Assembly (NCBI GenBank): GCA_023231475.1 | Contig: JALJEE010001270.1 | Coordinates: forward strand, 1 to 33,965 | DNA: 33,965 bases | Origin: Seison nebaliae | Lineage: Eukaryota | Direction of reading: 5' to 3' | Shown: positions 2,077 through 33,828 of the stretch, one piece after another | Numbering within the stretch: position 1 is the stretch's first letter | Layout of the letters: every line of letters starts with the position of its first letter | Program-made: the position numbers and the translations under genes | Notes under the pieces: generated by a model | Databases searched by the model: none | What the model saw: only the letters and a program-made list of their open reading frames with translations | Told to the model about the DNA's origin: nothing

Positions 2077-5034
2077 TCATGATTGAATAATAGTAGACAA
2101 CCGTCGACGACTATACCGAGTATTAGACAATGAGTGTAATCGACGAACAGTTGAAGCCGAACTGGGTAGAAGTAAATTCCGCTGTTCCCTTTCGAATTCG
2201 TTGGGATGCATTTTAGATTCTTCCAATCTTTGAAGATCTTTGTCATTTTTGTCCAGGTTATTTGAAAGATCACTATGTTTGCGATGATGAAATTGAAATA
2301 ATTGTAAATTGAGATTATGTAAATTCCAATTAGGCGACTTAGTTTCATCATCTCTAATTAATGAATGGGCCGTAACAGATTTGGATGGGAGACTTTTCAT
2401 CTTCTTTCTATTAACATTGTAACGATAGAGAGCCGCCAATGCTGATAATGGTAAGGGATAACATTTCAAGTTTATTTGAGAGGCACTTGAGTTCACATGA
2501 TTTATTTTTTGTCTTTGAGTATGAAAAGAATGACTATACGGTCGTCGACGTAGTTTCTGGTTGTTTTGCGAGTGGACGGAATTATCGATGGATGATGATT
2601 TGTGATAAGTGATCTGATGCAAACTAAAATCGTTTGTTGACGAACGCCATAATGTTCGTTGTCGCCGATATCGAAGAACGTTATAAAGAATGGGGAAAAA
2701 AAGAAAAGAAGATTTTGTCGATTGTGGAATTGTTTCTAACAAACTCATTTTCGGTTTTTTTCCATTTATCTGATCTCTTTCATGACGATGCCGATCTCGG
2801 AAATTATTTCTACCATCGAATTTCTCTTCATCTTTCTCAATTTTCATGGGAGCTTTGGGAATGATGTTGATGTTATTGTTGTTGATAGTTAATCGATATT
2901 TCTTCGATTGTTCATGTTTTATTTGTTGATGTCTTAAACGTTGATGATAATAGAATTGAGAGTCGGGATGATTATTTCTGTTAAAGGAGCAAATGCGTTG
3001 GAAAATTGAAGGATTCCTTTTTGATGAACATTGTAATTCTTTGATCATTCGTTTCTTCTGTCTCCAAATACAAAAATGGCAAAGTATTTTTAGAAACGTC
3101 TTTCGATAATCTTTGGAAGAGAAAGCGTATATGAAAGTATTCATGCACGAATTAACATGACCCAACCACGTCAAAATATTGATAATGATCGGATGAACGT
3201 CAATGAAGGTGGAGACAATGTTCAAGATGAAGAATGGTAACCAACAAATAATAAATATTCCCATCACAATACCAAGTGTCTTGGCAGCTTTCTGTTCTTT
3301 CGATAATTTTACTAATCGTTTAGTAAGCGTCTGATTCGCTTCCGTTTCCGATGTGAGAGATGCGAAATAAGCCGAACTGAATATCAAGTTCTTTGAACGA
3401 AGTCGTTTCAACATTAAGATCCTTTCTAATGTGTCTGAACGAAAGTTCCATTTACGTTTCGTTTGGTTTGTTTTTAATCGATTGTTCCTTTCATTCGCAA
3501 ACGAATGCGAATTATTCCCAAGAAACACACAATCTTCTTCTTCATTCTTCTTTGAATGTGAATTATGTTGCATTCGATGATGCATATCCTCAAACGATCG
3601 ATAACGACGCAATTTCGGTAAGTATAAACGTTCCTCTTCCAAATGTTGTCTCGTTTGCTCTTTTTCGATTGATGGCATCGTATATTTCTCTCTAAGATTT
3701 ATGGCATGAATTGAAGCACGACGTAATAAAGGATCGGTGATCTTTTCATTAATCAATCGTGTCGAACTACTAAGAATATTCTTACGATGAAGTAATTTAA
3801 TAATTGTCGATTGTCTTCGATGTTTAGACGAACGATTCACTAAGAACAACGGCGATTGCATCGATGTTGTTTTGACTGTGGTCGAATGACTGTCATTATG
3901 ACCATTTGATGTTTGCGTTCCGATACCGGCCGAATTATATTTTCCTCGATGAATTCTCAAGACAATTTGATGCGTCACTTTCGGTGTGGAGTTGCAATGA
4001 TTTACATGTGGCTGATGAGTTAATTGACGGAATCGTTTCGTTACTGAATGGAGTAGTTTAGGTGAAGACTTGGGGACATAGGTATGGAAACTGTTTTTAT
4101 TCTTCCCATAAGAATTATTAGAATAATACGAATTCTCTTTTTTCTGATGATTTCTTCCATGGAAATGTTCATTTAGATTTTTCCTTTTGTAACGTTTATC
4201 ATCGTCCACCACAAATTCCTTATCCGTTTCACATGTCACAATGCCACCACGACGTACACATAGGATTTGATGTCTTGCAGCAACAAAAACACGCCAATAT
4301 AAGAATAACATGACCATTAATGGAATATAAAAGCTGATGAGTGACGACATGATGATATAGAAACGACTAGGAGAGAATTCACAAATTCGATCATCATTCG
4401 TGTGATTAATGGAACTTAATGTTGTATTGTGAATCATGAAGATTTGTGTGATGGATTTGTACGTGTTGGAATCGGTGGGGAAACAAAGAACAGGAACGGA
4501 TATCAAAGAACTCGCCAACCAAACGAGAATGATTAATGTTAAACATCTCGTTTTCGTCATTATCAGAGGATAAGTTATCGGATTTGTGATTGCCCAATAA
4601 CGATCGAGAGCTATAACGCATAGATCTAAGATAGATGCCGTGCTGGCGAAAACATCGGCACTTCTCCACACGCAGCACCACCCACGTCCGAAAAGCCATT
4701 GGTGATGTCCATAAAATTCGAATATCCAATTCAACGGCATCACAAAAACACCGACGATTAGATCAGCGGTGGCTAGTGACATAATAAATAATCCAGCACT
4801 TGCTCGTAGACTCTTCTCATAGAGCACCGATATGATTACTAGAAGATTTCCTGCAATCGTTATGATAATAATGAATGCTAGAATTGCTCCAATGATACTA
4901 CGAATGGCTATGTCGCTCACCGAGTAAGTCGAATTGGATGCAATCGAATTTGATATAAGGAAACGTGATTTAATATTGATCGATTGTTGATTATCTATAG
5001 TCATACGCATCGGTAATGGTTCCAGCGTCATCAT
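2077..5034 (-). CDS. Dop1R2: Class A biogenic-amine GPCR, invertebrate-type dopamine receptor (Dop1R2/DAMB/INDR-like), single exon, 985 aa
   Basis: Seven hydrophobic segments with GNLLV (TM1), SLATADL (TM2), D3.32 in ADVFASTASIL, LDRYWAITNP, TM5 SSLISFYIP carrying the catechol-binding serines, LRIHRG in ICL3, KEQKAAKTLGIVMGIFIICWLPFF (TM6) and WLGHVNSCMNTFIY (TM7). DRYWAIT, LRIHRG and KAAKTLGIVMG match the Dop1R2 clade as I recall it. An in-frame TGA directly precedes the ATG. Confidence 0.85.
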   Translation of the reverse strand: MMTLEPLPMRMTIDNQQSINIKSRFLISNSIASNSTYSVSDIAIRSIIGAILAFIIIITIAGNLLVIISVLYEKSLRASAGLFIMSLATADLIVGVFVMPLNWIFEFYGHHQWLFGRGWCCVWRSADVFASTASILDLCVIALDRYWAITNPITYPLIMTKTRCLTLIILVWLASSLISVPVLCFPTDSNTYKSITQIFMIHNTTLSSINHTNDDRICEFSPSRFYIIMSSLISFYIPLMVMLFLYWRVFVAARHQILCVRRGGIVTCETDKEFVVDDDKRYKRKNLNEHFHGRNHQKKENSYYSNNSYGKNKNSFHTYVPKSSPKLLHSVTKRFRQLTHQPHVNHCNSTPKVTHQIVLRIHRGKYNSAGIGTQTSNGHNDSHSTTVKTTSMQSPLFLVNRSSKHRRQSTIIKLLHRKNILSSSTRLINEKITDPLLRRASIHAINLREKYTMPSIEKEQTRQHLEEERLYLPKLRRYRSFEDMHHRMQHNSHSKKNEEEDCVFLGNNSHSFANERNNRLKTNQTKRKWNFRSDTLERILMLKRLRSKNLIFSSAYFASLTSETEANQTLTKRLVKLSKEQKAAKTLGIVMGIFIICWLPFFILNIVSTFIDVHPIIINILTWLGHVNSCMNTFIYAFSSKDYRKTFLKILCHFCIWRQKKRMIKELQCSSKRNPSIFQRICSFNRNNHPDSQFYYHQRLRHQQIKHEQSKKYRLTINNNNINIIPKAPMKIEKDEEKFDGRNNFRDRHRHERDQINGKKPKMSLLETIPQSTKSSFLFFPILYNVLRYRRQRTLWRSSTNDFSLHQITYHKSSSIDNSVHSQNNQKLRRRPYSHSFHTQRQKINHVNSSASQINLKCYPLPLSALAALYRYNVNRKKMKSLPSKSVTAHSLIRDDETKSPNWNLHNLNLQLFQFHHRKHSDLSNNLDKNDKDLQRLEESKMHPNEFEREQRNLLLPSSASTVRRLHSLSNTRYSRRRLSTIIQS

Positions 5035-14376: not shown

Positions 14377-16071
14377 TTAAATGTTCTTGGAAGATGGAGA
14401 GATGGTGGATGATTTGGATGACATGGAAAGTGATTCTCTCACAAGCGAGACATGCGGAAATTCGTCAAATATTTGATGATGAAAAGAAATTAGAGTCTCA
14501 ACGATCCTCATTTCACAAGAGTGGAATGACGAAGAGAATTGTCGATTTCTTTCCATTCGAATCAACACATTCTTCAATACGATAGCTAATGTGTTCGCGG
14601 ACATTCCATTAGCATCAGAATATTTCTGTATCTCATGGAAATGCCTCGTCACATACCGTAATGTATGGAGATGGATCGGAGGTAGTTTCAATAGTACGAT
14701 TCGTAATTGATGAATGAAATTATCTTTGTTTGATTTGCTAATGAAACTCATCTTTTCTCGTCCTCTTTCCATGTCGTCGTCGATGAGACGCATCAATTCA
14801 TCATTCAATTCATAAGTGATCAATGGTATTGGCAATGACCGAAGATAGTCTTTCAATACACAAGCGATCGCATATACATCTTTAATGGTGCACAGATTGC
14901 ACAATGATTCATTCTCTTTATCCTTTCCATTAATTATTGACGAACTCTCAATTCTTGCTGATGATCGGAGAGATATCGGACTTGACAATGACGTCACCGA
15001 ATTGCTGGATAAAATCACCAGATGGTTCGCCTTCATTTTCTTCGAGTTCGGTGAAAACTTGTCAATATAATTTCGGAAGATTCCTTTCACACAATTCATC
15101 GATTCGACCGATCCTTCTTTTCGATATATTCCACATAACGCTCTCAAATCTCTCTTCTCAATCTCGTTAATACAACTTTTTATAACGAATGGAATCACAC
15201 CGTCAGTTGCTCGAACGAACGTCGTCAAATCGATTCCGAACATTTCTCGCATATATTTCATTCGAGGAATACAATCATCGATGACATCGTTGAGACATTT
15301 GTGATGGATCTTCCGTCCACAATGGAGACACTTTAGTTCATGTCGGATATAAGGAAAGATATTTCGATAACAGATTGTACATTTGACAGGAAAGACTATT
15401 GATACGGTTTGGAAATGATGTTGTTGAGAATGTCGAACAATATGTAATCGATCAATTAACTCTTCACCCGCCTGACTTAAATTCACGTCCAATTCTTCAT
15501 TTTCCATTTTCCTCTTATCTTTCTCCACCACAACATCTTTTTTCTTCTTTTTCTTGTTCTCTTTATTTTTCCACTTCGCTCTATTCTCATTCTTTGTTTG
15601 TGATGTCATTTCTGACGAAAGTTTCGGTTGGAAGAATATCGTTGAATTAACTGTTGTTGTTGCATCGAATGAATGTTCATCAGTCAATTTGTGGGAATTG
15701 ATTTGATCATGGTAGAATGATGCCAATCCATCGCCCACTAATTCATTTAAGGAAATAAATTTACGATGTCCCACCGAATGGAAAGTTCCATCAAATTTTA
15801 TCTTAAAATTTTTCACTTTTCCATCGAATAAAATATCGAGAGTAAAACTATTGGGAGGATTGGTCGATGAACGGACAAGATAGGAACCAGTCAAATTCTC
15901 GTTTAATAAAATATTTTCCGATTGTTTTCTGTCAATTAATCCATGGTAAATTTCTCCATAATGTGGATAGATGTCATGCAATTCAATTTCCTTCGTTATA
16001 ACAGCGTTCGGAGTCAAATGTGGATCGATCATCTCGTTAATTAGTCTTAATAAGCAACTATCAATCTGACT
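14377..16071 (-). CDS. CHN1/CHN2: Chimaerin-family RacGAP (SH2 - C1 - RhoGAP)
   Basis: SH2 YGEIYHGLIDR..GSYLVRSS..F.SLNELVGDGL; C1 zinc finger H-x12-C-x2-C-x13-C-x2-C-x4-H-x2-C-x7-C at 15271-15420; RhoGAP FGIDLTT..GIYR (Arg finger 15121-15123)..LKDYLRSLPIPL..LPPIH. The ORF track starts at 16032, but the frame is open to 16071 (SQIDSCLLRLINE resembles chimaerin SYLYQLQQE), so a small upstream exon is likely. Confidence 0.92.
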   Translation of the reverse strand, partial: SQIDSCLLRLINEMIDPHLTPNAVITKEIELHDIYPHYGEIYHGLIDRKQSENILLNENLTGSYLVRSSTNPPNSFTLDILFDGKVKNFKIKFDGTFHSVGHRKFISLNELVGDGLASFYHDQINSHKLTDEHSFDATTTVNSTIFFQPKLSSEMTSQTKNENRAKWKNKENKKKKKKDVVVEKDKRKMENEELDVNLSQAGEELIDRLHIVRHSQQHHFQTVSIVFPVKCTICYRNIFPYIRHELKCLHCGRKIHHKCLNDVIDDCIPRMKYMREMFGIDLTTFVRATDGVIPFVIKSCINEIEKRDLRALCGIYRKEGSVESMNCVKGIFRNYIDKFSPNSKKMKANHLVILSSNSVTSLSSPISLRSSARIESSSIINGKDKENESLCNLCTIKDVYAIACVLKDYLRSLPIPLITYELNDELMRLIDDDMERGREKMSFISKSNKDNFIHQLRIVLLKLPPIHLHTLRYVTRHFHEIQKYSDANGMSANTLAIVLKNVLIRMERNRQFSSSFHSCEMRIVETLISFHHQIFDEFPHVSLVRESLSMSSKSSTISPSSKNI

Positions 16072-18090
16072 CTACTTAAAACATAACATAAATGAGAGAT
16101 GAATCCACATTAATAACCATTCCCATTTGATACAAGACCGATCAAACCAAAAATAACTGTTATTGTTTTTTAAGTTTATACTCCTGCCAAAATATCAGAA
16201 GAGAAATATTTTAAATTATCTCTCTTTTCTCATTCACTTCATTTCCTCCATCTCCCTTCACTTCAAAACTTAATTTTAATTTTTTTTCGAACTAATTTTT
16301 AATTTCTAATCAACTTCTCAATTTCTTCCAATTCACGTTTGTTAAGAATCTCGTTAATTGACATGTTAAGATTCCTAAAATATTCCTCAATAATAATTTA
16401 TTGTTTCTCTCCAGATTATTACTAAAGATTATCATATCTAATTAATATACTTTTATTTATTCTTATACTTATTTTTTAAAGAGGATACCACTAAAGAGGT
16501 AACATAAAATAATCATAAATTCCATTTTGAAAAGGAAATTTCCGTTGTATTGCATAAAAATATTGAAATTGACCTTAGTTGGATATTTATCTTTTAAACT
16601 TAATAAACATCAAAATTATTTGCATGTGGTCTAGTTGTATGTCTCTACATATTTGGAGAATTAATTCCAATGAGTGTTGGACTTCTAATTTTAGGAAGTG
16701 GTTCTAACAATAATTAGTCGTTGAGACAAAATCTAATGAAAGATTAAAGGTTATTTATTGAAATAAAAAGAGGATTTATACGAGTTTTTAATTGAATGTT
16801 CCTTTCCTCTAAAATAACTCGATCGATTTTTTGTCACATGATTAGATGAAATCATAATCGTTCCCGTCGTCATTCAATTTCCATAATTCACAACATGTTT
16901 TACGTTTTGTGAATTGGTTTCGAACGAATCTCCAAAAGGAAGCACTGGGTAAAATAGTGCATAATTTGTGAAGGAAACATTCCACTTCTTTCCTGACGTT
17001 CTTGATGGTAATTCATAGAATGATGAACAGTCATGTACGCACAATGGAAGTGTTGAAAACTAATAGAAATTTATCAAATTTCCCTCATATCATTCGCTTC
17101 CTATATCATATAGAATGAACTGATAGAAGTCAATATTTCACATAATCGAATCAAAGTGAATTTTTGATGATGAAGCGAGTTGTTCTCTAAGTTGAAAAGC
17201 GTCAAAATGGCGTGAAACGTATCTTATCGAACATATTTGAGGAAACACTTTATTTATGAGACAGATGGAAGAATTTCGTTCAAATCAATCATCAATTTCA
17301 TAGAACTTATACAATGTAAGGATTAACGAAATCTTTCCTTTTAAATTATTTAAAAAAGAAATTACCATTTTATTCTTACCATTTCTTACTTATCCACTTG
17401 CTCTAATAGTTAGGCAACAGATGAAAGAATGATTAAGGTAATCGAATGAGCTTCGAATGAATCAAAGAACACCATTGTATAAGGATAAAAGAGATAACGA
17501 AATCAGATTTCATAAGCATTATTATCTTTAATGAGATTATCCAAATAATTTCTAATTGTGACTTAATGGATTAAGGAGTACGACATTTAGAATTAAGAAT
17601 GCTAAATCGTTATTAACTCAACACTTCTTCCAATTCATTCTTATTTGTTTCTCGTTCTACAACTACTCATTGACTCGAATTATTTGGAAGAATTTGCAGA
17701 AGAGATGTAAACTATCGATATCATCTTGATTAATTGGGAAGAATATGGAAGAGTAAAAAACTTTCAAACTTAACTACCTAATCAATTGACTATAGTTTGC
17801 TGTTGAATGAATTCAGGATAAATAGAGATGGATATCGTTTTTCTAATTCTATTAAAGAATAAATTTAACCAATATTCTCTCCTCAACTAATATCTCTTTT
17901 ACTCATTTCTTATCAATAAACGATAATAATATTTTTTTCTTTATTAAAAAAAACTTTATTCATTCATTACAACTCGATGAACCTTTTCTTAATTTTTTTT
18001 TATTTCTAATTTCTTGATCTTTCACTTTTTATCATTTCTTCTTCGTCAGAAAATTATCCGTCAGCCATCCTTTACATTATACGAAATAAA

Positions 18091-19402
18091 ATGTTTTTAA
18101 AACATAACAATATAATTGACATGATAAGATTATTTTCGTTATTGTTATTAAACGTTCGATTATTCTCATGTGAAAGTTGGTGGAATTTCGGTGTTTATTA
18201 TACGAAAATTGCCAATTCCAAAAACAAAGTTGAGTCAATCAAAATGTTATGTGATCGATCAGTCAATTTGAGTTGGAAACAAAAACGATTTTGTCATCAA
18301 TTCCCTTTCCACCTCATTGTGATTAGTGAGAGCATCGCACAGAGCATCGAATTGTGTCAGAAAAGGTTTGAAAATAAACCATGGAATTGCACTGTTTACG
18401 GAAATATCGATCACATTTTCGGACCGGCTAAAATCGAAAGTTTAATTTATCTATTCTCTCAAATTCCTTTTAATTATCTCTTTCAATTTTTTCTGCTTTT
18501 TTAGACACGAAGGAGATAGCATATGTACGAGCACTTACCACCGCATCCATTATTATCAATTTAGCCGAAAGTTGCGCGGAAGGTCGTTTATCAAACACAT
18601 GTGGCTGCTTATTACGAAATGCACCCATGAAATTTTCCGGTTCGGTTGAATGGAACCGTTGTAGTGATAACATTTGGTATGCGAATAAATTCTATCGTTA
18701 TTTCTCTCGAATATTCTCTGAATCTTCTAATAATAACAAGACAAAAATTTCGTTAACAAATCAAACTTCATTCCGTTCGGCTATTCATCGTAGTCGACGC
18801 TTCAATAAACGTGAAACGTCAAATGATGATATAAATAATTTTAACAAAGATCTTGGAAGACAGGTTTCTTATTACTCATTCTATATCACTACAATATTTT
18901 ACAGATTGCTACCAGATCAATGGCATTACGTTGTGCATGTATTCAGTGGTATTATGGGAAATGTGTTAAGAACCGATGTGCATATCGAGTAACATCAGTG
19001 AAATCATTAGAAAGAAGATTGACCCAATTGTACGACCAAGCTGTCCATTTTACAACATTACGTCAACTCAGAACTTTCAAGAACCATCGACAACGACGAG
19101 GTGAAATTCATTATAAACCACTCATCTATTCAGAAGAGTCACCAAACTACTGCGAAAAGAATAGAAAGTTCGGTTGGCCTGGTGTGCACGGTCGTGTTTG
19201 TTTCAAGAACGACATGTCAGTTGACGGTTTTAAATCGATAAATGTCGCTCAAATCGAAAGTAATTGTAGTCAAGCTTGTTGTGGCAAATTCTCACAAACA
19301 CTCCGTAAAATCCAATACAAATGTGACTGCAAATTCCAATGGTGTTGTCAACTGAAATGTAAAATTTGTGAACGATTATCATTAACATACACATGCAATT
19401 AA
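18091..19402 (+). CDS. Wnt: Divergent Wnt ligand (possibly Wnt5-like); exons 18091-18439, 18505-18863, 18905-19402; 401 aa (alternative start 18121)
   Basis: Signal-peptide-like N-terminus, then CQKRF..WNC, (N)TKEIAYVRAL, C.EG.L..CGC, W..CSDN, N..LGR, LIYSEESPNYC, G..GRVC, CCG and CDCKFQWCC..C..C....TC. There are 24 Cys in Wnt spacing. GT-AG introns 18440-18504 (65 nt, phase 1) and 18864-18904 (41 nt, phase 0) join three ORF-track fragments into one frame. The subfamily guess rests on SWW and LS..QK.FC...H and is tentative. Confidence 0.93.
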
Positions 19403-20469
19403 TAGAATAATCTCTTCAAATTCTATTCATTTCCATTTCATCAATATTTTACAGATATTTCTTCCCTAAATTCTTATAGCCATTTCATTTGATAAACTCA
19501 TACCATTATTATAAATTAAGATTTTGTTATCAATGTCTAATATGTATCTTTTTTAGAATCAATCAATATGTTATAATATTATCCAAATATTAGTTTAAGG
19601 AAAGGAATTTACTTTGGTTTTTCGATTTCGAAGAAAAAATCACTCAATTATTAACTCTACTTTTTCTTCCACGAATGGTAACTGTAGTAGTATTTATTCT
19701 TATCCAAAATATATCGTAGTGAAACCTTTGACAGTTCCTTTTATCCATCTTTCAAAGTTCACGATATTTCATTATACTAAATCACGTTTTATTCGACATC
19801 AAACAGTCGATTATTAAAATAAGTTAAAGTATCTTAAACATCCTAAAACATTGGTTTATCTTTATTATTCATTGCCAGTGAGTCCTAATGAAAAAAACGC
19901 AAGTTATGAGAAATATTAGATTATATTCCATTGATTTATTGTCATTCAAATGCTGAAAGAGGCCAAAATTGAGAAGGAAATAAAAAAAATAAATTATTTT
20001 GAGTTTGATCCAAACGGAAGTAGTTCACGGTCAGTCCAATGAGTACATGACTTAATAAAAAATGTGAAATGAACATTCTCTGTTGCCGATTACATCGTTA
20101 GTGATAAGTGGAACGAATAGATAAAACTACATGAAGTGTGACGGATGTAAAATGATGAAAAATGATAAAAAAAATGGTGAAAGTAATTGAGAATCTTTGA
20201 AGGAGAAAAATTGTTGCTCTGAAGTTTCGTGCAATTATTTATGATAAATAACTAAATAAATAAATAAATAAATATAGATCTATACAAGGAGAGAAGAAGG
20301 TGTTTGCAAAACAAATAATTTAAGTCTGAAAAGAGATGATGAGAAGGATCGTGAAATTTCATTTGGAAACCGTAACTCGATTCCATTTTATTACGTTCGA
20401 GTATTTTCCAGTATAAAGGGAGAGTTTGTGGATATAAGAGCGAAAGCAAAATTCAATTTGACCAATTGT

Positions 20470-24687
<4,218 letters not shown>

Positions 24688-25058
24688 AATTCTCAACAAA
24701 GACAAGATGCGCTCCTATAACTCTTCTTGTTCTTCACGCGTCATTCTCCTTTAAAAATTGTTTTTCAACTCACATTCAATACTCAGTGGCTAAGAATGGA
24801 ATTGGACATGATGAAAATAAAATTTTCATTCTGATGCTAACGAAGTAGTTTATCTGAAATGATTCGAATGAAATGCTTCTGTATATTTGAAATTTGTAAT
24901 GAGTAGAATTATTTAATTTTCCATCATCTTTTCTTTAATAATCGTTCTGATTGTTAAGTGAATTAGAAAAAAATAGAATTTATGAGAAGGACTTTGCGGG
25001 GAAATTCGGTGATCAACGCAACATTACACTCGATGTCTGTTTACGACTGACGGTGTGT

Positions 25059-28007: not shown

Positions 28008-31000
28008 TCAGTCGAAAGTGAAATCGCTTCTTTTCCCTTCGTTCAGCAGAATCATTTCCGAATGTTTGATCATTGGAATACGCTTGTCAACTTTAATTAA
28101 GTAAGATGATAAATCATTTTTCAACGAAATTTCAACATTCTCATTTTCCATCAGTTTCTTCTCTAAAATCTTTAAATCTTTCTCCAATTCCTCATAGAAG
28201 TTAAACAAATCTTTAGCAATCGACATGTAGAGTCGATTGTCAGTTTCGATGACTAATTTCGAATTAATCAATTCCAAAGTCAGCTTTGATAAGGATAAGG
28301 TGGTAGCTGCCATCGGATAAATGACAGGATTCGTATGACTAATCTTTATAAACTTCTCATTAGACTGAACTGCAAAATTATATATGTTCTTTTTACTTTG
28401 TCCTGTGACGTTCATCGTCGCATATTGAACAAATGGATTGGATATATATTTATCTAACAAATGAGCCAAACGTCTGGTTGCTATGAAGACGAAGGAATTT
28501 CGATCGATTTCTAAGAAATAATCGATAACTGATTTCAACAAGATTTCCGCACTCGTCATCGTTGTGTGAGTGAATGGTTCGTCAATGAAAATTATTCGAT
28601 TTTTCTTATCAATCCGATTTAGGAATATCGTCGAATATTGACCAACTTCATCATTGAATGATGATAATGTGATGTCCGCTTGTTTCTTCCCATTGATTAA
28701 ACGGATTTCATCAAAAATACTTATGGAACTTTCTTTCAGACATGATACCAATGTTCCCAATTGATGGAGGAAAATAGTAAATAAGATTCTTCGAATAACT
28801 TCCGTTTTTCCACTTCTACTCGGACCGGTTAGAAAGGAAATCTTCTCATCTTGATCAATTGTTATCGGAATATTGTCGGGAGAAATAGTCGATTTTGATC
28901 CAGATGTCGAAGCGATCAATTCATCTGTATAACTGATAGATAACAATGAGGACGGAATGAAACATTCCTTCAATTCAAATATTCCCTTCACTTTCACATT
29001 TGTGGAGATGGGACGGCTGGGATTCAGACGAATCGGATGTAATTTCGTTAAAGTGAAATTCTCATCAATCGAATATATGGACAAATGTTGAATGATCTGT
29101 ATTTCACGAATTTGTTCATTAATCAACTGCAAAACGAGATATCGATCATTGAAAAATTTGGTCAACTCTTCGAACACTTCGTATTGTAAGAAAGAAATGC
29201 TGGAAATGGTTTCGTGAGCGAAATTTGTGAAGAAATCCGTTTTTTTGTTCATTAAATAAATTTCATTTTCATTCACTTGAATGGAAATGATGGACTGTAA
29301 AAATTTCTGCTTATTTAATTCAATTTCAGTATCAACTTTCGAATTTCGTCGTCCACTCAAACATCGACTGGTTGTTGGCTGAGTTTGAATAACTCGTTCA
29401 GTTGGTGCTGCTGTCACTTTCGACATTTGTTGAGATGATCTGGATGATGATCTGGTTGTTCTACATTCATCCATTGACGCCAAAAGAGGAGAAGTGGATG
29501 AACAATTAAATTTGTTTTGTAAATTCTTTAAAATGTCATAAGAATAAATTCGAATGAATTCGTTCGTGTCAATGGAGAGATAAGTTAAATGTAATTTCGT
29601 ATAGATCATACGGAGAGAAGTTAATTTCGATCTATCAATCTCTTCCTGTTCGATCATTTGTTTGATTTCGTCGAAACTGGAAGACACTTTTTCCAATTCC
29701 ACTAATTGTCGATTACCTTCCGGTTGAAATTGGAAGATCTTCTCGTTTTTCAGTAAACGAATTTTAATAATTTCGTTCAAATCCTTCAACATCTTTTGGA
29801 GGTAGTTACGAGATTCGTAGAGGAAAGTATTGATGAATGATTGAATAGAATATCTCTCAAATATCTTCAAGAGATGGTCGATTAATAAGGAGATCGAATA
29901 GATATTGGGAATGATTTTTGAAAGACGTTCTCGTTGATTCTGATGGAATTGATGAATATTCATCTCCATTCTTTCATTCCCTTTCTTCAATAATCGAATG
30001 TTTTGTGTGAACTGATTGATGGTTCGAAATAATTTCGATAACATTCTCAAACTATCTCTCGACTGTTCACCAAATATTCGTGTGAATTGTCTCTTTTCCT
30101 TCAAAATTTTCTCGTCTACGATTATATGATGGAAACATTCCCACAACTTCCAATGATAAGCAACGGGTAATGTCTTTCTCAATTGACCGAAAAGTGATCG
30201 ATTCGATTCTAATCGATTGACAACTTTCTTATAATCATTAAATCGATATTGAGAGGAGATGACACGAATGAATGAAAGAAGAGGAAAGTCGAGTTGAAAT
30301 GTGAAATGATTGTGGAAGGAGTGGAAACAAATCAATTTATATTTTATTTCTCTATCCCATTCGCTGAACATTTTGAGGAATTTTATTAAAATTCGATTTT
30401 TTGTCAATTTGTAACATTGTTGAAATGAGACGATAGATCTCAAATTTTCCCGAACATTCTCACAATAAACGTTTAATGATTTACTTTCAACAAAATGTTC
30501 TCGTGATAAGTTGGATGTATTACGCGTTGTGCCACTCACACTACGATTAGAGTTAGATATGGAGAAAGAATTGTCGAAATCATGTTTAGAGGAAAGATCA
30601 TAATCGATATTTGTTTGTCGATTGATCGATAATTGATGGTTAAATTTCCGCATATTCTCTCCATTCAACAGATGTAGATAATCGAGAAATTCGTCATTAT
30701 CAATCACAACTTCACGGACGTTTGCTGAGCGGAAGAGATAGAGCATATACTGATGAATCGACAATTCGCACAACGATAATTTTGCCATATTTCTGCTTGT
30801 TGAATTAGTCCAATCGGAATTCATCAGGAATTCGAACGATCCACTTTCTAATCGAAATATTCCTAAATTCACATTCTTGTTGACATCGGTACAACTCAAA
30901 AAAATGATGATCTCATCGCTTGGTATTTGTGAAGAATTTCTGGTGGAATTGAGTGATTTGGTGTCGATGATCGATCGATTAACAGGAGAAAGAACGTTCT

Positions 31001-31547
31001 GAGAAAAGATATAATTCTTCTCGCAAACTGGAGTATTCATTGGGATGATATCTAACGACTTCTCCTCCACAGGCAACGGGAAACAACGCAATAGACGACT
31101 TTCGGCCGATTTCCATAATTCGATGTTCTTCTCGGTCATCATTTCCATTTCATTTATTCGAGTCATTTCTTCATTTTGTCTCATTCTTTTCCTACTAAAA
31201 ATTGTTCCTTCTTCTTCACATAAATTTACATAATTTTTATAAATATCAATCGTCTTCATCTCAGTGACTGGCAAGAGAATCGTATCAACGATATTTCGTT
31301 TCTTACTTCTTTGCGATTGGAAGGTATCATTGAAATAAACAGATTTGTTCGATAACTGTGAATCAGGTACAATATGAAATGAATTATCTTCCTCTACTGA
31401 TATTTTACTATTTCTTTCACTATTATTTCCTTCATTATTATCGAGCGGTAAATCATTTAATTCACTCAAATTTAAAGGAGATCCTTCATCTGAGAATGAT
31501 GGTGACAAGCTATTATTCCAAGATGATTCAGTCAGATCTATCTCCAT
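28008..31547 (-). CDS. Divergent MutS homologue, probably meiotic MutS-gamma class (MSH5-like more than MSH4-like), single exon, 1179 aa
   Basis: C-terminal MutS ATPase: LTGPSRSGKT (Walker A, 28803-28826), L.QLG..V, LSSF..E..Q, IIFIDE (Walker B) and FIAT. SLFG.L marks the start of the core domain. No GxFYE mismatch-binding motif is visible. SLRMIYTKLHLTYLSI and LSSFNDEVGQ resemble MSH5 from memory, so the subfamily is not secure. Confidence 0.75.
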   Translation of the reverse strand: MEIDLTESSWNNSLSPSFSDEGSPLNLSELNDLPLDNNEGNNSERNSKISVEEDNSFHIVPDSQLSNKSVYFNDTFQSQRSKKRNIVDTILLPVTEMKTIDIYKNYVNLCEEEGTIFSRKRMRQNEEMTRINEMEMMTEKNIELWKSAESRLLRCFPLPVEEKSLDIIPMNTPVCEKNYIFSQNVLSPVNRSIIDTKSLNSTRNSSQIPSDEIIIFLSCTDVNKNVNLGIFRLESGSFEFLMNSDWTNSTSRNMAKLSLCELSIHQYMLYLFRSANVREVVIDNDEFLDYLHLLNGENMRKFNHQLSINRQTNIDYDLSSKHDFDNSFSISNSNRSVSGTTRNTSNLSREHFVESKSLNVYCENVRENLRSIVSFQQCYKLTKNRILIKFLKMFSEWDREIKYKLICFHSFHNHFTFQLDFPLLSFIRVISSQYRFNDYKKVVNRLESNRSLFGQLRKTLPVAYHWKLWECFHHIIVDEKILKEKRQFTRIFGEQSRDSLRMLSKLFRTINQFTQNIRLLKKGNERMEMNIHQFHQNQRERLSKIIPNIYSISLLIDHLLKIFERYSIQSFINTFLYESRNYLQKMLKDLNEIIKIRLLKNEKIFQFQPEGNRQLVELEKVSSSFDEIKQMIEQEEIDRSKLTSLRMIYTKLHLTYLSIDTNEFIRIYSYDILKNLQNKFNCSSTSPLLASMDECRTTRSSSRSSQQMSKVTAAPTERVIQTQPTTSRCLSGRRNSKVDTEIELNKQKFLQSIISIQVNENEIYLMNKKTDFFTNFAHETISSISFLQYEVFEELTKFFNDRYLVLQLINEQIREIQIIQHLSIYSIDENFTLTKLHPIRLNPSRPISTNVKVKGIFELKECFIPSSLLSISYTDELIASTSGSKSTISPDNIPITIDQDEKISFLTGPSRSGKTEVIRRILFTIFLHQLGTLVSCLKESSISIFDEIRLINGKKQADITLSSFNDEVGQYSTIFLNRIDKKNRIIFIDEPFTHTTMTSAEILLKSVIDYFLEIDRNSFVFIATRRLAHLLDKYISNPFVQYATMNVTGQSKKNIYNFAVQSNEKFIKISHTNPVIYPMAATTLSLSKLTLELINSKLVIETDNRLYMSIAKDLFNFYEELEKDLKILEKKLMENENVEISLKNDLSSYLIKVDKRIPMIKHSEMILLNEGKRSDFTFD

Positions 31548-31731
31548 TCTATTCTCAATTTAATATTCAACTTCCACTATTTTCTCTACAACTGTGAATG
31601 ATGTGACTTTTAACAATCCAATCACCCCAATGATTTCTCTCTGCAATTCTGGATAACAGTCAAGAAATGTCAAGAAAGAAAAGAGATAAGGAAACTATAA
31701 ATACTATTTTTAAGTTATGACATTAATATAA

Positions 31732-31971: not shown

Positions 31972-33591
31972 TTAGATAGGTGGTCGATTTTCTTGTCCAG
32001 TAGATTGATGATAATTATTAAATATATTTCCATTATCTGTCTGTTGTGTCGTCATGTTCAAATCGAGATTGTGAAAGTTTTGTCGAGAACGTCGTTTTCT
32101 TTGAGTGTCGCCAATGAGTCGTTCAGGAATCTTGACCGTCGTCCCCACCGCAATATGAGAACTAGCAGCTTGGATAGTTCGGAATTGTAGTTTAAATTCG
32201 AGACCATCACCACGACTTAAACGGAACATAATGTAAGCAGGAGAATTCTCTCTCTGTGGATAACCGACCGCTTTGTAGATTAACGTTTCCACTCGTCGAT
32301 CGCGTGATGTGATAGTGAGAACGTTGTGCGAAGTTAATTGGACACCGTAGCCGAGTCGTTTACAAATTTGTTTTAATTCTCGAATTGCATCCATTAATGG
32401 TACTCCGAGATAAATGCGAGTCATTCGTCGAATTGAATCAATCTCCACCGTTTGAATAATATTGGCTTGTGTATCGTTGGGACATTGTTCGGCCATATAT
32501 CGATTCATATCGGTTGGTTGTGTTGCATTCATTTGATCGACACAAATCTGTTTGGATGTCGGTTGCAATTGATAATTTCTTTTCAAAGGAGAATTCAGAT
32601 TTGTTCTCAATAATTTTATTTGAATGTCTTCATCTATCAAACTAATATCATTCTGCACTTGACCGTCTTCCATCGATGACAGATCAGCCCACGTTCTATC
32701 CGGTTGAGCATAGTCGATCTCACCGAATTGTGAAATGGTCACATGATGGAAGTTCGATTGTGGATTCACTGGAATAATCGATGATTTCATCCACATATGA
32801 TTTTGAATTTGTGTTAATTCCAATCGTGAACTTGGATTCAATTCCAACATCCTTTCGATCATATCGAATAATTCAGGAATTTTCGAAATCTTATTCCATG
32901 GCGGTTTCGTTCGTTCATGTCTCACCCAATAATTGAATGAAACATTTTTGATGGGATTCGGTTCGTCCCATGGCAATTCTCCCGTTACCATAGCAACTAG
33001 AATGACTGCACATGTCCAAAGTTCTGCTGGTTCCGCCCGATAAACTTCACTGCCCAACACTTCGGGTGCCACATATGGTAACGTTCCACATTCCTTCGAT
33101 AACAGACGTTCTTTACCGTTCTGACGGAAAAATGTTGACATGCCGAAATCTGCTAATTTTAACGTTCCGTTAGCTGAAATCAAAATATTTTCAGGTTTCA
33201 AATCTCTGTGAGTTATACCTTTCAGATGCATATATTCCACAGCATTGATCAATTGATGGAAATAGTTTTTAGCACTTTCTATCGGCATTCCTTGTTCTGG
33301 TTCGATCTGATCATATAATTCACCACCCGACGCGTACTCGATAAAAAGATAATGGAAAGAGGCCAATCTCTTCTCACCATAAAGTCTCACAATATTATCA
33401 TGTCTCAACGAACGTTGACAACAAATCTCTCGTTCGATAGTCGAACTATCTGCTGATCGATAAGCATTCAAGTTAACAATTTTCAGTGCCAACGCTTCAT
33501 TCCGTTGAGAGATTGCTAACTTAACTTCAGCGTACGCTCCTTCTCCCAAAGTTTGCATAAATTTCCATCCAGGAGGTAAAATCTTCTCCAT
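31972..33591 (-). CDS. CHEK1: Checkpoint kinase 1 (Chk1/grapes), single exon, 539 aa
   Basis: W...QTLGEGAY.EV, EYASGGEL.D.IEP..GMP, GITHRDLKPEN, DFG..T.FR.NG.ERLL...CGTLPYVAPE, GELPWD.P and PW.KI. The C-terminal KA1 domain has the Chk1 motifs RRMTR and FRLSRGDGLEFK..F. Confidence 0.95.
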   Translation of the reverse strand: MEKILPPGWKFMQTLGEGAYAEVKLAISQRNEALALKIVNLNAYRSADSSTIEREICCQRSLRHDNIVRLYGEKRLASFHYLFIEYASGGELYDQIEPEQGMPIESAKNYFHQLINAVEYMHLKGITHRDLKPENILISANGTLKLADFGMSTFFRQNGKERLLSKECGTLPYVAPEVLGSEVYRAEPAELWTCAVILVAMVTGELPWDEPNPIKNVSFNYWVRHERTKPPWNKISKIPELFDMIERMLELNPSSRLELTQIQNHMWMKSSIIPVNPQSNFHHVTISQFGEIDYAQPDRTWADLSSMEDGQVQNDISLIDEDIQIKLLRTNLNSPLKRNYQLQPTSKQICVDQMNATQPTDMNRYMAEQCPNDTQANIIQTVEIDSIRRMTRIYLGVPLMDAIRELKQICKRLGYGVQLTSHNVLTITSRDRRVETLIYKAVGYPQRENSPAYIMFRLSRGDGLEFKLQFRTIQAASSHIAVGTTVKIPERLIGDTQRKRRSRQNFHNLDLNMTTQQTDNGNIFNNYHQSTGQENRPPI

Positions 33592-33828
33592 TTGTTTCCA
33601 AATTTCCAGTATCTAATGTAAAATTTGAAGAATTATTTCAATGAGTGGGAGAAATAAAAATTTTCGAATTTTACAAATGAAAGTTAGTGGAAGAGAGCTT
33701 AATTTTAACTAATTTCGGATGTTGAAAACTATCAAACATCGAGAGTGCACCATTTTATGCAAATGGAATATCACACGCACACGATAATAGTAGATTAGAC
33801 TACGAAGTACATGTATCTCTTATATGGT

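What the first reader, a model, noticed from the sequence alone, without database searches (positions are those of the whole stretch)
18932..18979. Wnt lacking the lipidated serine: CKCHGxSGSC replaced by aromatic CACIQWYYGKC (candidate lipid-free, Porcupine-independent Wnt)
Seen: exon 3 reads MALR-CACIQWYYGKC-VKNRC, with no Ser or Thr in the hairpin and a loop one residue longer than canonical. All 24 Wnt cysteines, the signal peptide and the C-terminal finger CDCKFQWCC are intact, and the model has no stops or frameshifts. Established: the Ser in CHGxSGSC (Wnt3a S209, XWnt8 S187) is O-palmitoleoylated by Porcupine; the lipid is needed for Wntless-mediated secretion and fills a groove in the Frizzled CRD. 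Drosophila WntD is the well-known unlipidated exception. Inference: I/W/Y/Y at the thumb tip may act as a protein-encoded lipid mimic, giving a soluble Wnt that bypasses Porcupine/Wntless. Alternatively it is an antagonist or uses another receptor. Several codons differ in a coherent way, so one sequencing error cannot explain it.
Basis: partly seen in the sequence, partly recalled or inferred. Interest (0 to 1): 0.88.

Follow-up and report, generated by a model that had tools for sequence, protein, structure and literature searches.

The report
Rotifer Wnt without its lipid site
An intact Wnt signalling gene of the small marine rotifer Seison nebaliae has lost the serine that normally carries Wnt's fatty acid, and also the nearby residues that grip its export carrier Wntless, so it is likely a lipid-free Wnt exported without that carrier, which a published gene survey also failed to detect in this animal.

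Summary
An intact three-exon Wnt gene (18091/18121-19402, +; public model named as Seison nebaliae) keeps 24 of 24 conserved cysteines and the Frizzled-binding finger. Its thumb loop reads IQWYYGK, with Tyr in the acyl-serine register. This is not a sequencing error: it needs at least 7 substitutions plus an inserted codon, and contigs of two studies are identical.

The decay is local. The thumb keeps 1 of 8 conserved non-Cys positions, against 32 of 45 elsewhere (p=0.003). The lost positions include the Wntless contacts K215/T216/W218, which Drosophila WntD has also lost. A published BUSCO table scores Wntless missing in Seison and both acanthocephalans, but present in 21 of 22 free-living rotifers. 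Seison lacks 356 of 954 BUSCOs, so this is only a hint.

Best reading (0.55): a lipid-free, Wntless-independent secreted ligand, convergent with WntD. The 'aromatic lipid mimic' is untested (0.15). Ser-less Wnts are rare but not unique (4 of 145 others). Transcription, Porcupine, other Seison Wnts and Frizzleds could not be tested. New variant of a known kind.

The parts
18091..18439 (+). Wnt exon 1 (coding; ATG at 18091 or, more likely, 18121; the public model starts at 18244)
   Evidence: (PF00110, E 1.8e-07)
18121..18171 (+). Likely signal peptide (hydrophobic stretch before the SWW motif)
   Evidence: hydropathy scan; no dedicated predictor run
18440..18504 (+). Intron 1, 65 nt, GT-AG, phase 1
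   Evidence: same junction in public model P0001
18505..18863 (+). Wnt exon 2; holds the W-loop (Trp equivalent to Wnt3a W150 kept at 18651-18653, the following GG changed to NR) and an insertion predicted disordered
   Evidence: (E 8.6e-14)
18864..18904 (+). Intron 2, 41 nt, GT-AG, phase 0
   Evidence: same junction in P0001
18905..19402 (+). Wnt exon 3 (thumb, linker, finger, stop)
   Evidence: E 1.4e-23
18932..18979 (+). Remodelled thumb hairpin: four Cys kept, loop of 7 residues with three aromatics, no Ser/Thr
   Evidence: predicted hairpin, pLDDT 95-97
18953..18955 (+). Tyr202, in the register of the palmitoleoylated Ser (Wnt3a S209); predicted at the hairpin turn
18971..18982 (+). N208, R209, (C210), A211 in place of the Wntless-contact residues K215, T216, W218 of Wnt3a
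19322..19348 (+). Index-finger motif CDCKFQWCC, with the Trp equivalent to Wnt3a W333 (needed for signalling) kept

Best explanation
This is an intact, strongly diverged Wnt whose thumb hairpin has lost the acyl-acceptor serine and the adjacent Wntless-contact residues, so it is likely made without a lipid, likely secreted through the ordinary secretory route without Porcupine or Wntless, and likely still a ligand that grips a Frizzled-type domain with its conserved finger while the aromatic thumb tip would supply a direct protein contact in place of the lipid. SHOWN: gene structure, cysteine scaffold, loss of Ser and of the K/T/W contacts, retention of the finger Trp, and concentration of the changes in the thumb. 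PREDICTED: a Wnt fold with Tyr-Gly at the hairpin turn. INFERRED: absence of lipid, Wntless-independent export, receptor binding, and true loss of Wntless from the genome.
For: (1) Intact frame, GT-AG introns, 24 of 24 Cys columns. A neutral-decay simulation kept all Cys and no stop in 5.4% of 2000 runs at 0.02 substitutions/site and in 0 of 2000 at 0.05 and above, while the motif alone needs at least 7 changes in 30 nt. (2) Thumb 1 of 8 conserved non-Cys positions kept versus 32 of 45 elsewhere, Fisher p=0.003. This is the lowest thumb retention of 121 gap-free rows; WntD and an Oscarella Wnt follow at 2 of 8. (3) In the WLS-Wnt3a structure K215, T216 and W218 contact WLS; K215A/W218A cuts binding and secretion but keeps about 60% of signalling, and W333A abolishes signalling without harming secretion (PMC8316347). 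The Seison protein has lost the first three and kept the last. These positions are K/R in 69, T in 71 and W in 70 of 75 canonical thumbs, although they lay outside the search pattern. All three are lost together in only 2 of 145 other Wnts, one being WntD. (4) WntD lacks the Ser, is unlipidated and is secreted without Porcupine or Wntless (PMC2427328), and it binds and signals through Fz4 (PMC3206050). (5) BUSCO 202545at33208 (Wntless) is Complete in 11 of 11 monogononts, found in 10 of 11 bdelloids, and Missing in S. nebaliae, N. agilis and P. laevis (supplement of PMC12256650). (6) AlphaFold2 with 93 sequences gave pLDDT 87.3 and pTM 0.84, and the top 10 Foldseek hits are all Wnt structures.
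Against: BUSCO 'Missing' is weak here. S. nebaliae lacks 356 of 954 BUSCOs, 165 are missing only in Seison plus acanthocephalans, and one free-living bdelloid is also scored Missing. The authors of the genome paper allow that divergence may hide genes. The K/T/W triple is also lost in P0077, which keeps its Ser, and three of the four other Ser-less Wnts keep K and T, so the link is not strict. The Trp equivalent to W150, another WLS contact, is kept, and Wnt3a S209A can still form a complex with WLS when over-expressed. The reference set was picked by similarity to this protein, which may inflate retention outside the thumb. No orthologue was found in any other species or strain, so conservation of the aromatic loop is unknown. 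The model is guided by canonical Wnts and solved structures.
Confidence: 0.55

Rival explanations
1. Aromatic lipid mimic: I/W/Y/Y fill the palmitoleate groove of an otherwise conventional Frizzled domain.
For: Three aromatics in the loop, where 139 of 145 other Wnts have none and none has more than one. Two other Ser-less Wnts also carry Phe at the site. Tyr202 is predicted at the tip. Designed proteins that occupy the lipid groove are known (recalled, no call).
Against: In a regular hairpin W200 and Y201 would point to opposite faces, and side chains are much shorter than a C16 chain, so they could at most plug the groove mouth (inference). WntD binds Fz4 with a polar loop, so no mimic is needed.
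Confidence: 0.15
2. Secreted antagonist or ligand of a non-Frizzled receptor: it holds Frizzled by the finger only and blocks lipidated Wnts, or it acts through a groove-less domain of the ROR type.
For: Finger kept, thumb remodelled. The ROR2 domain lacks the lipid groove yet binds WNT5A weakly (PMC11219042). WntD signals independently of beta-catenin.
Against: An antagonist needs lipidated Wnts to oppose, and the missing Wntless call argues against these. No other Seison Wnt was seen among the 30 hits that were looked up for names.
Confidence: 0.12
3. A Wnt under relaxed selection or recently silenced, stranded by loss of the secretion machinery; the aromatic residues are incidental to AT-rich drift.
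For: Long branch (1.25-1.58 changes per column), genome-wide gene loss, and I, Y, K, N are AT-rich codons (FYMINK share 0.33).
Against: All cysteines and the reading frame are intact despite the large thumb change. Retention outside the thumb (0.78) lies within the range of other Wnts: 14 of 122 rows (itself included) score as low or lower.
Confidence: 0.1
4. Still lipidated and Porcupine/Wntless-dependent, through the Tyr hydroxyl at the tip or another residue.
For: Tyr202 sits in the Ser register and the following Gly is kept. The BUSCO miss may be a false negative.
Against: Porcupine is described as transferring palmitoleate to the hairpin serine. The rest of its recognition motif (K, H, G, S) is gone. 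I recall no Tyr-O-acylation by MBOAT enzymes (no call).
Confidence: 0.08

Closest known systems
Drosophila WntD (Wnt8/D; PDB 4KRR; P0128 = D. grimshawi WntD)
   Same: No Ser in the thumb, lengthened loop, Gly kept, and K/T/W contacts all lost. WntD is the experimental precedent for lipid-free, Porcupine/Wntless-independent secretion.
   Different: The WntD loop is 8 residues and polar; this one is 7 and aromatic. WntD works in an animal that keeps Wntless for its other Wnts, whereas Wntless is scored missing here. The loss is independent by inference, since beetle, mite and copepod members of the same Wnt8/D clade keep the Ser.
Canonical lipidated Wnts (PF00110; PDB 4F0A, 6AHY, 7DRT, 7KC4, 8TZO)
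   Same: Fold, 24 Cys, finger motif, intron positions; 24-38% identity.
   Different: No acyl-acceptor Ser, no CHGxSGS motif, no K/T/W contacts; insertions near residues 140-165 and 292-303.
Other Ser-less Wnt records: Glandiceps XP_077998206.1, Octopus sinensis XP_029654969.1, Aphelenchus MOM-2 KAH7717822.1
   Same: No Ser/Thr in the thumb loop; two have Phe at the site.
   Different: They keep K and T after the loop (two also keep W) and have at most one aromatic. They are gene predictions that I did not verify.
Animals reported without Wntless: glass sponges and Myxozoa (PMC5684314)
   Same: Wntless not detected.
   Different: Both also lack Wnt ligands. Seison keeps at least one intact Wnt gene.

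Membership tests
Wnt family (PF00110) | Profile match above the curated cut-off | tested here: met
   each exon passes 20.3 bits: 31.4, 52.2, 84.3
Wnt family (PF00110) | Conserved cysteine scaffold | tested here: met
   24 of 24 columns
Wnt family (PF00110) | Helical core with thumb and finger hairpins | tested here: met
   predicted model pLDDT 87.3; Foldseek E 3.5e-20 to 6AHY; a prediction guided by homologues
Wnt family (PF00110) | N-terminal signal peptide | tested here: inconclusive
   hydrophobic stretch after ATG 18121; no dedicated predictor; absent from the public model
Lipidated (Porcupine-substrate) Wnts | Ser at the thumb tip within CHGxSGSC | tested here: not met
   Tyr in that register, no Ser/Thr in the hairpin
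Lipidated (Porcupine-substrate) Wnts | Wntless-contact residues K215/T216/W218 | tested here: not met
   N/R/A
WntD-like lipid-free Wnts (functional class) | No acceptor Ser | tested here: met
WntD-like lipid-free Wnts (functional class) | No lipid by mass spectrometry; secretion without Porcupine/Wntless | not testable with these tools
   needs expression experiments
WntD-like lipid-free Wnts (functional class) | Binds a Frizzled domain | not testable with these tools
   no Seison Frizzled sequence was reachable; no complex prediction run
Wnt8/D subfamily (orthology with WntD) | Falls in the Wnt8/D clade | tested here: inconclusive
   outside the 13-row clade in both quick trees, but the AU test does not reject inclusion (p 0.75; the constrained tree scored higher)

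The most novel reading that the evidence does not exclude
Seison, and perhaps the whole Seison-plus-Acanthocephala lineage, runs Wnt signalling without lipid: Wntless (and probably Porcupine) has been lost from the genome, and the remaining Wnt has rebuilt its thumb with aromatic residues that bind a co-evolved Frizzled directly. It would be an animal with a working Wnt ligand but no Wnt export machinery, and a natural template for soluble Wnt agonists.
Probability: 0.35. Interest if true: 0.87.

Novelty: new variant of a known kind. Interest (0 to 1): 0.64.

Why it matters
The palmitoleoylated serine is described as absolutely conserved (PMC12419801) and Porcupine as present in essentially all metazoans (bioRxiv 2021.07.19.452875). 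WntD is the single characterised natural exception named in the reviews I read. A second, independent lipid-free Wnt with the same pattern of lost Wntless contacts gives a natural test of which thumb residues serve export and which serve the receptor. If Wntless is truly gone from this lineage while Wnt stays, it bears directly on whether the lipid is needed for Wnt signalling or only for the standard export route. It would also offer a natural soluble Wnt scaffold.

Tried and rejected
No whole genome is held, so Porcupine, Wntless, Notum, Frizzled and other Wnts of this animal could not be searched.

Sequencing runs: no RNA holder listed. The laid contigs show no joints, as DNA would, and X6 laid nothing. 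None of this bears on expression. A wider laying at lower stringency gave no result, so the question of a second-strain orthologue stays open.

Published transcript-to-genome table of S. nebaliae (supplement 2 of PMC8351084, cut to 19,906 rows): no row with this gene's exon/intron signature. One transcript block ended at 18439 on contig k141_3831, but 0 of 12 introns of that contig's transcripts fit splice signals in the window, so it is a coincidence. The table is incomplete, so this is no evidence either way.

Word-based homologue searches found only the protein itself or nothing. HMMER over 1.84 billion representatives found no close relative (relatives above 50% identity would be hidden in its own cluster). 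The Atlas search returned only generic Wnt clusters.

Single-sequence fold of exon 3: pLDDT 45, not used. Subfamily assignment failed: the placement changed between trees (with Oscarella/Hofstenia, near Helobdella/Ciona rows), and the test with the bdelloid Wnt did not finish.

Acanthocephalan supplements gave no Wnt, Porcupine or Wntless rows (one file cut); the P. laevis paper's single-copy cluster table has a Frizzled-2 row. Porcupine is not a term in the BUSCO supplement. No complex prediction was run, for lack of a cognate receptor. Two papers were not held (Speer 2019, Lee 2019). Earlier-findings look-ups gave nothing relevant.

Rows dropped before counts: L005 and 12 loci without a full 20-mer, plus 2 intron-broken motifs; 27 of 150 hits outside 280-460 aa for the column analysis; 4 of 149 without a parsable thumb.

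Full report
1. What is there. The window is AT-rich (32.6% GC) animal DNA with short introns. The finding lies in exon 3 of a three-exon Wnt gene on the + strand: 18091 or 18121-18439, 18505-18863 and 18905-19402, with GT-AG introns of 65 and 41 nt. The spliced frame gives 391 or 401 residues without stops, and each exon matches Pfam wnt above the cut-off. The protein database holds a 350-aa model with the same junctions, named 'hypothetical protein SNEBB_008269 [Seison nebaliae]' (P0001). That model starts at 18244 and omits an upstream hydrophobic stretch that is likely the signal peptide. Numbering below is that of P0001.

2. The thumb reads C195-A-C197-I-Q-W-Y-Y202-G-K-C205-V-K-N-R-C210. 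Against solved Wnts and canonical Wnts from metagenomes, Tyr202 stands in the register of the acylated serine and the loop is one residue longer. At least 7 substitutions and one inserted codon separate it from any canonical coding. Contigs from two study codes agree letter for letter over 17700-19800; X1 and X2 may be the window's own source, while X5 is another sample. No alternative exon with the canonical motif lies near the gene.

3. It is a maintained Wnt, not debris. All 24 conserved cysteine columns are kept. A simple neutral simulation (substitutions only) preserves all of them and an open frame in 5.4% of 2000 runs at 0.02 changes per site, and in none at 0.05 or more; the thumb alone has changed by at least 0.23 per site. 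AlphaFold2 on a 93-row alignment gives pLDDT 87.3, with strands 192-201 and 204-213 and Tyr202-Gly203 at the turn. Its ten significant Foldseek matches are all Wnt chains. This model leans on canonical homologues and does not show which disulfides form. Very recent silencing cannot be excluded, because transcription could not be tested.

4. The change is concentrated in the export surface. Among columns at least 70% conserved in 122 other single-domain Wnts, the thumb keeps 1 of 8 non-Cys positions and the rest of the protein 32 of 45 (Fisher p=0.003; 1 of 7 against 27 of 34 at 80%). Of 121 gap-free rows it has the lowest thumb score, followed by WntD and an Oscarella Wnt. The WLS-Wnt3a paper (PMC8316347; section 8 and passages read) lists K215, T216 and W218 as WLS contacts. 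It reports that K215A/W218A reduces WLS binding and secretion while keeping about 60% of signalling, and that W333A kills signalling but not secretion. The Seison protein has N, R and A at the first three and keeps the finger Trp. These three positions lay outside my search pattern and are K/R in 69, T in 71 and W in 70 of 75 canonical thumbs. Among 145 divergent representatives all three are lost together only in WntD and in P0077, which keeps its Ser. Against this reading, the W150-equivalent is kept, S209A Wnt3a can still bind WLS at high expression, and my reference set was selected by similarity to the query.

5. Genome context from print. [quoted passage not shown] The main text never mentions Wnt. 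The base rate is high: 356 of 954 BUSCOs are missing in Seison, and 165 are missing only in Seison plus Acanthocephala. So this is a modest push, not proof. A bdelloid Wnt (P0027, Rotaria) has the full canonical motif, so free-living relatives retain lipidatable Wnts. Porcupine could not be checked. Animals previously reported without Wntless, glass sponges and myxozoans, also lack Wnt ligands (PMC5684314, passages and Table 2).

6. How rare. HMMER over 1.84 billion representatives gave 1179 hits and listed 150. None is close (24-38% identity). In 145 with a parsable thumb the site is Ser in 133, Thr in 8 and something else in 4: WntD, a Glandiceps tandem Wnt, an Octopus sinensis record and an Aphelenchus MOM-2. 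None has a 7-residue loop or more than one aromatic in it. Loss of the Ser therefore recurs in databases, but this thumb had no match among those examined; 1029 lower-ranked hits were not seen. The subfamily is unresolved, and Wnt8/D membership is neither shown nor rejected.

7. Mechanism. Most likely (0.55) the protein enters the ER by its signal peptide, folds, is not a Porcupine substrate, leaves by bulk secretion without Wntless, and binds a Frizzled-type domain through the finger, with the aromatic thumb giving a protein contact. WntD shows that each step is possible: it is unlipidated and secreted without Porcupine or Wntless (PMC2427328; first part and passages read), and it binds and signals through a divergent Fz4 (PMC3206050, passages). 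The strong 'lipid mimic in a standard groove' version gets 0.15, an antagonist or ROR-type ligand 0.12 (PMC11219042, passages), relaxed or silent gene 0.10, and acylation at Tyr or elsewhere 0.08.

8. Literature. Ten library searches listed no paper on seisonid or acanthocephalan Wnts. The Seison genome paper (PMC8351084; passages, section 9, two supplements searched, one cut) has no occurrence of Wnt, porcupine, wntless or frizzled. Other papers seen as passages only: PMC10112924, PMC7458405, PMC12612157, PMC12419801, PMC12690905 (plus its supplement), and bioRxiv 2021.07.19.452875 and 2024.08.22.609214. PMC7310846 was seen as a search listing and through supplement rows. The library lacks most subscription papers, several supplements were cut, and those of preprints are closed, so a prior mention cannot be excluded.

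9. Verdict. The feature is real and is a new variant of a known kind (WntD-like lipid-free Wnt, independently evolved by inference). The most interesting open possibility, at about 0.35, is a lineage that has dropped the Wnt export machinery while keeping a Wnt. It can be settled by a profile search of three public genomes. Interest 0.64.

Noticed in passing
window 18091-18243: The public gene model (P0001) starts at 18244 and misses the upstream in-frame ATGs and the likely signal peptide.
   Followed up: partly
window 28011-31559 (-): 1183-aa open frame with only a weak MutS_V match (28.4 bits, below the cut-off of 30.2): a very diverged MutS-family gene, possibly a meiotic MSH4/5 type (guess).
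   Followed up: no
window ~20473-24714 (-): Spliced CDK of PCTAIRE-like look with a long low-complexity C-terminal extension in one open frame.
   Followed up: no
window 14380-16071 (-): SH2-C1-RhoGAP (chimaerin-type architecture) in a single open frame.
   Followed up: no
window 2080-5034 (-) and 31975-33612 (-): Single-frame rhodopsin-family GPCR with long loop and tail, and a Chk1-like kinase (the Chk1 label is from recall).
   Followed up: no
P0002, P0022, P0114: Other Wnt records without Ser/Thr in the thumb loop: Glandiceps (both domains of a tandem model), an Octopus sinensis record, and Aphelenchus MOM-2 with Phe at the site. They are further candidate lipid-free Wnts.
   Followed up: partly
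P0009, P0011, P0052, P0073, P0107, P0108, P0133, P0148: Eight of 145 Wnt representatives have Thr instead of Ser at the acylation site; whether Porcupine accepts Thr was not checked.
   Followed up: no
window 18700-18800 and 19230-19270: Two insertions relative to canonical Wnts: a basic, Asn/Ser-rich loop predicted disordered (about residues 140-165) and about 12 residues before C306.
   Followed up: no
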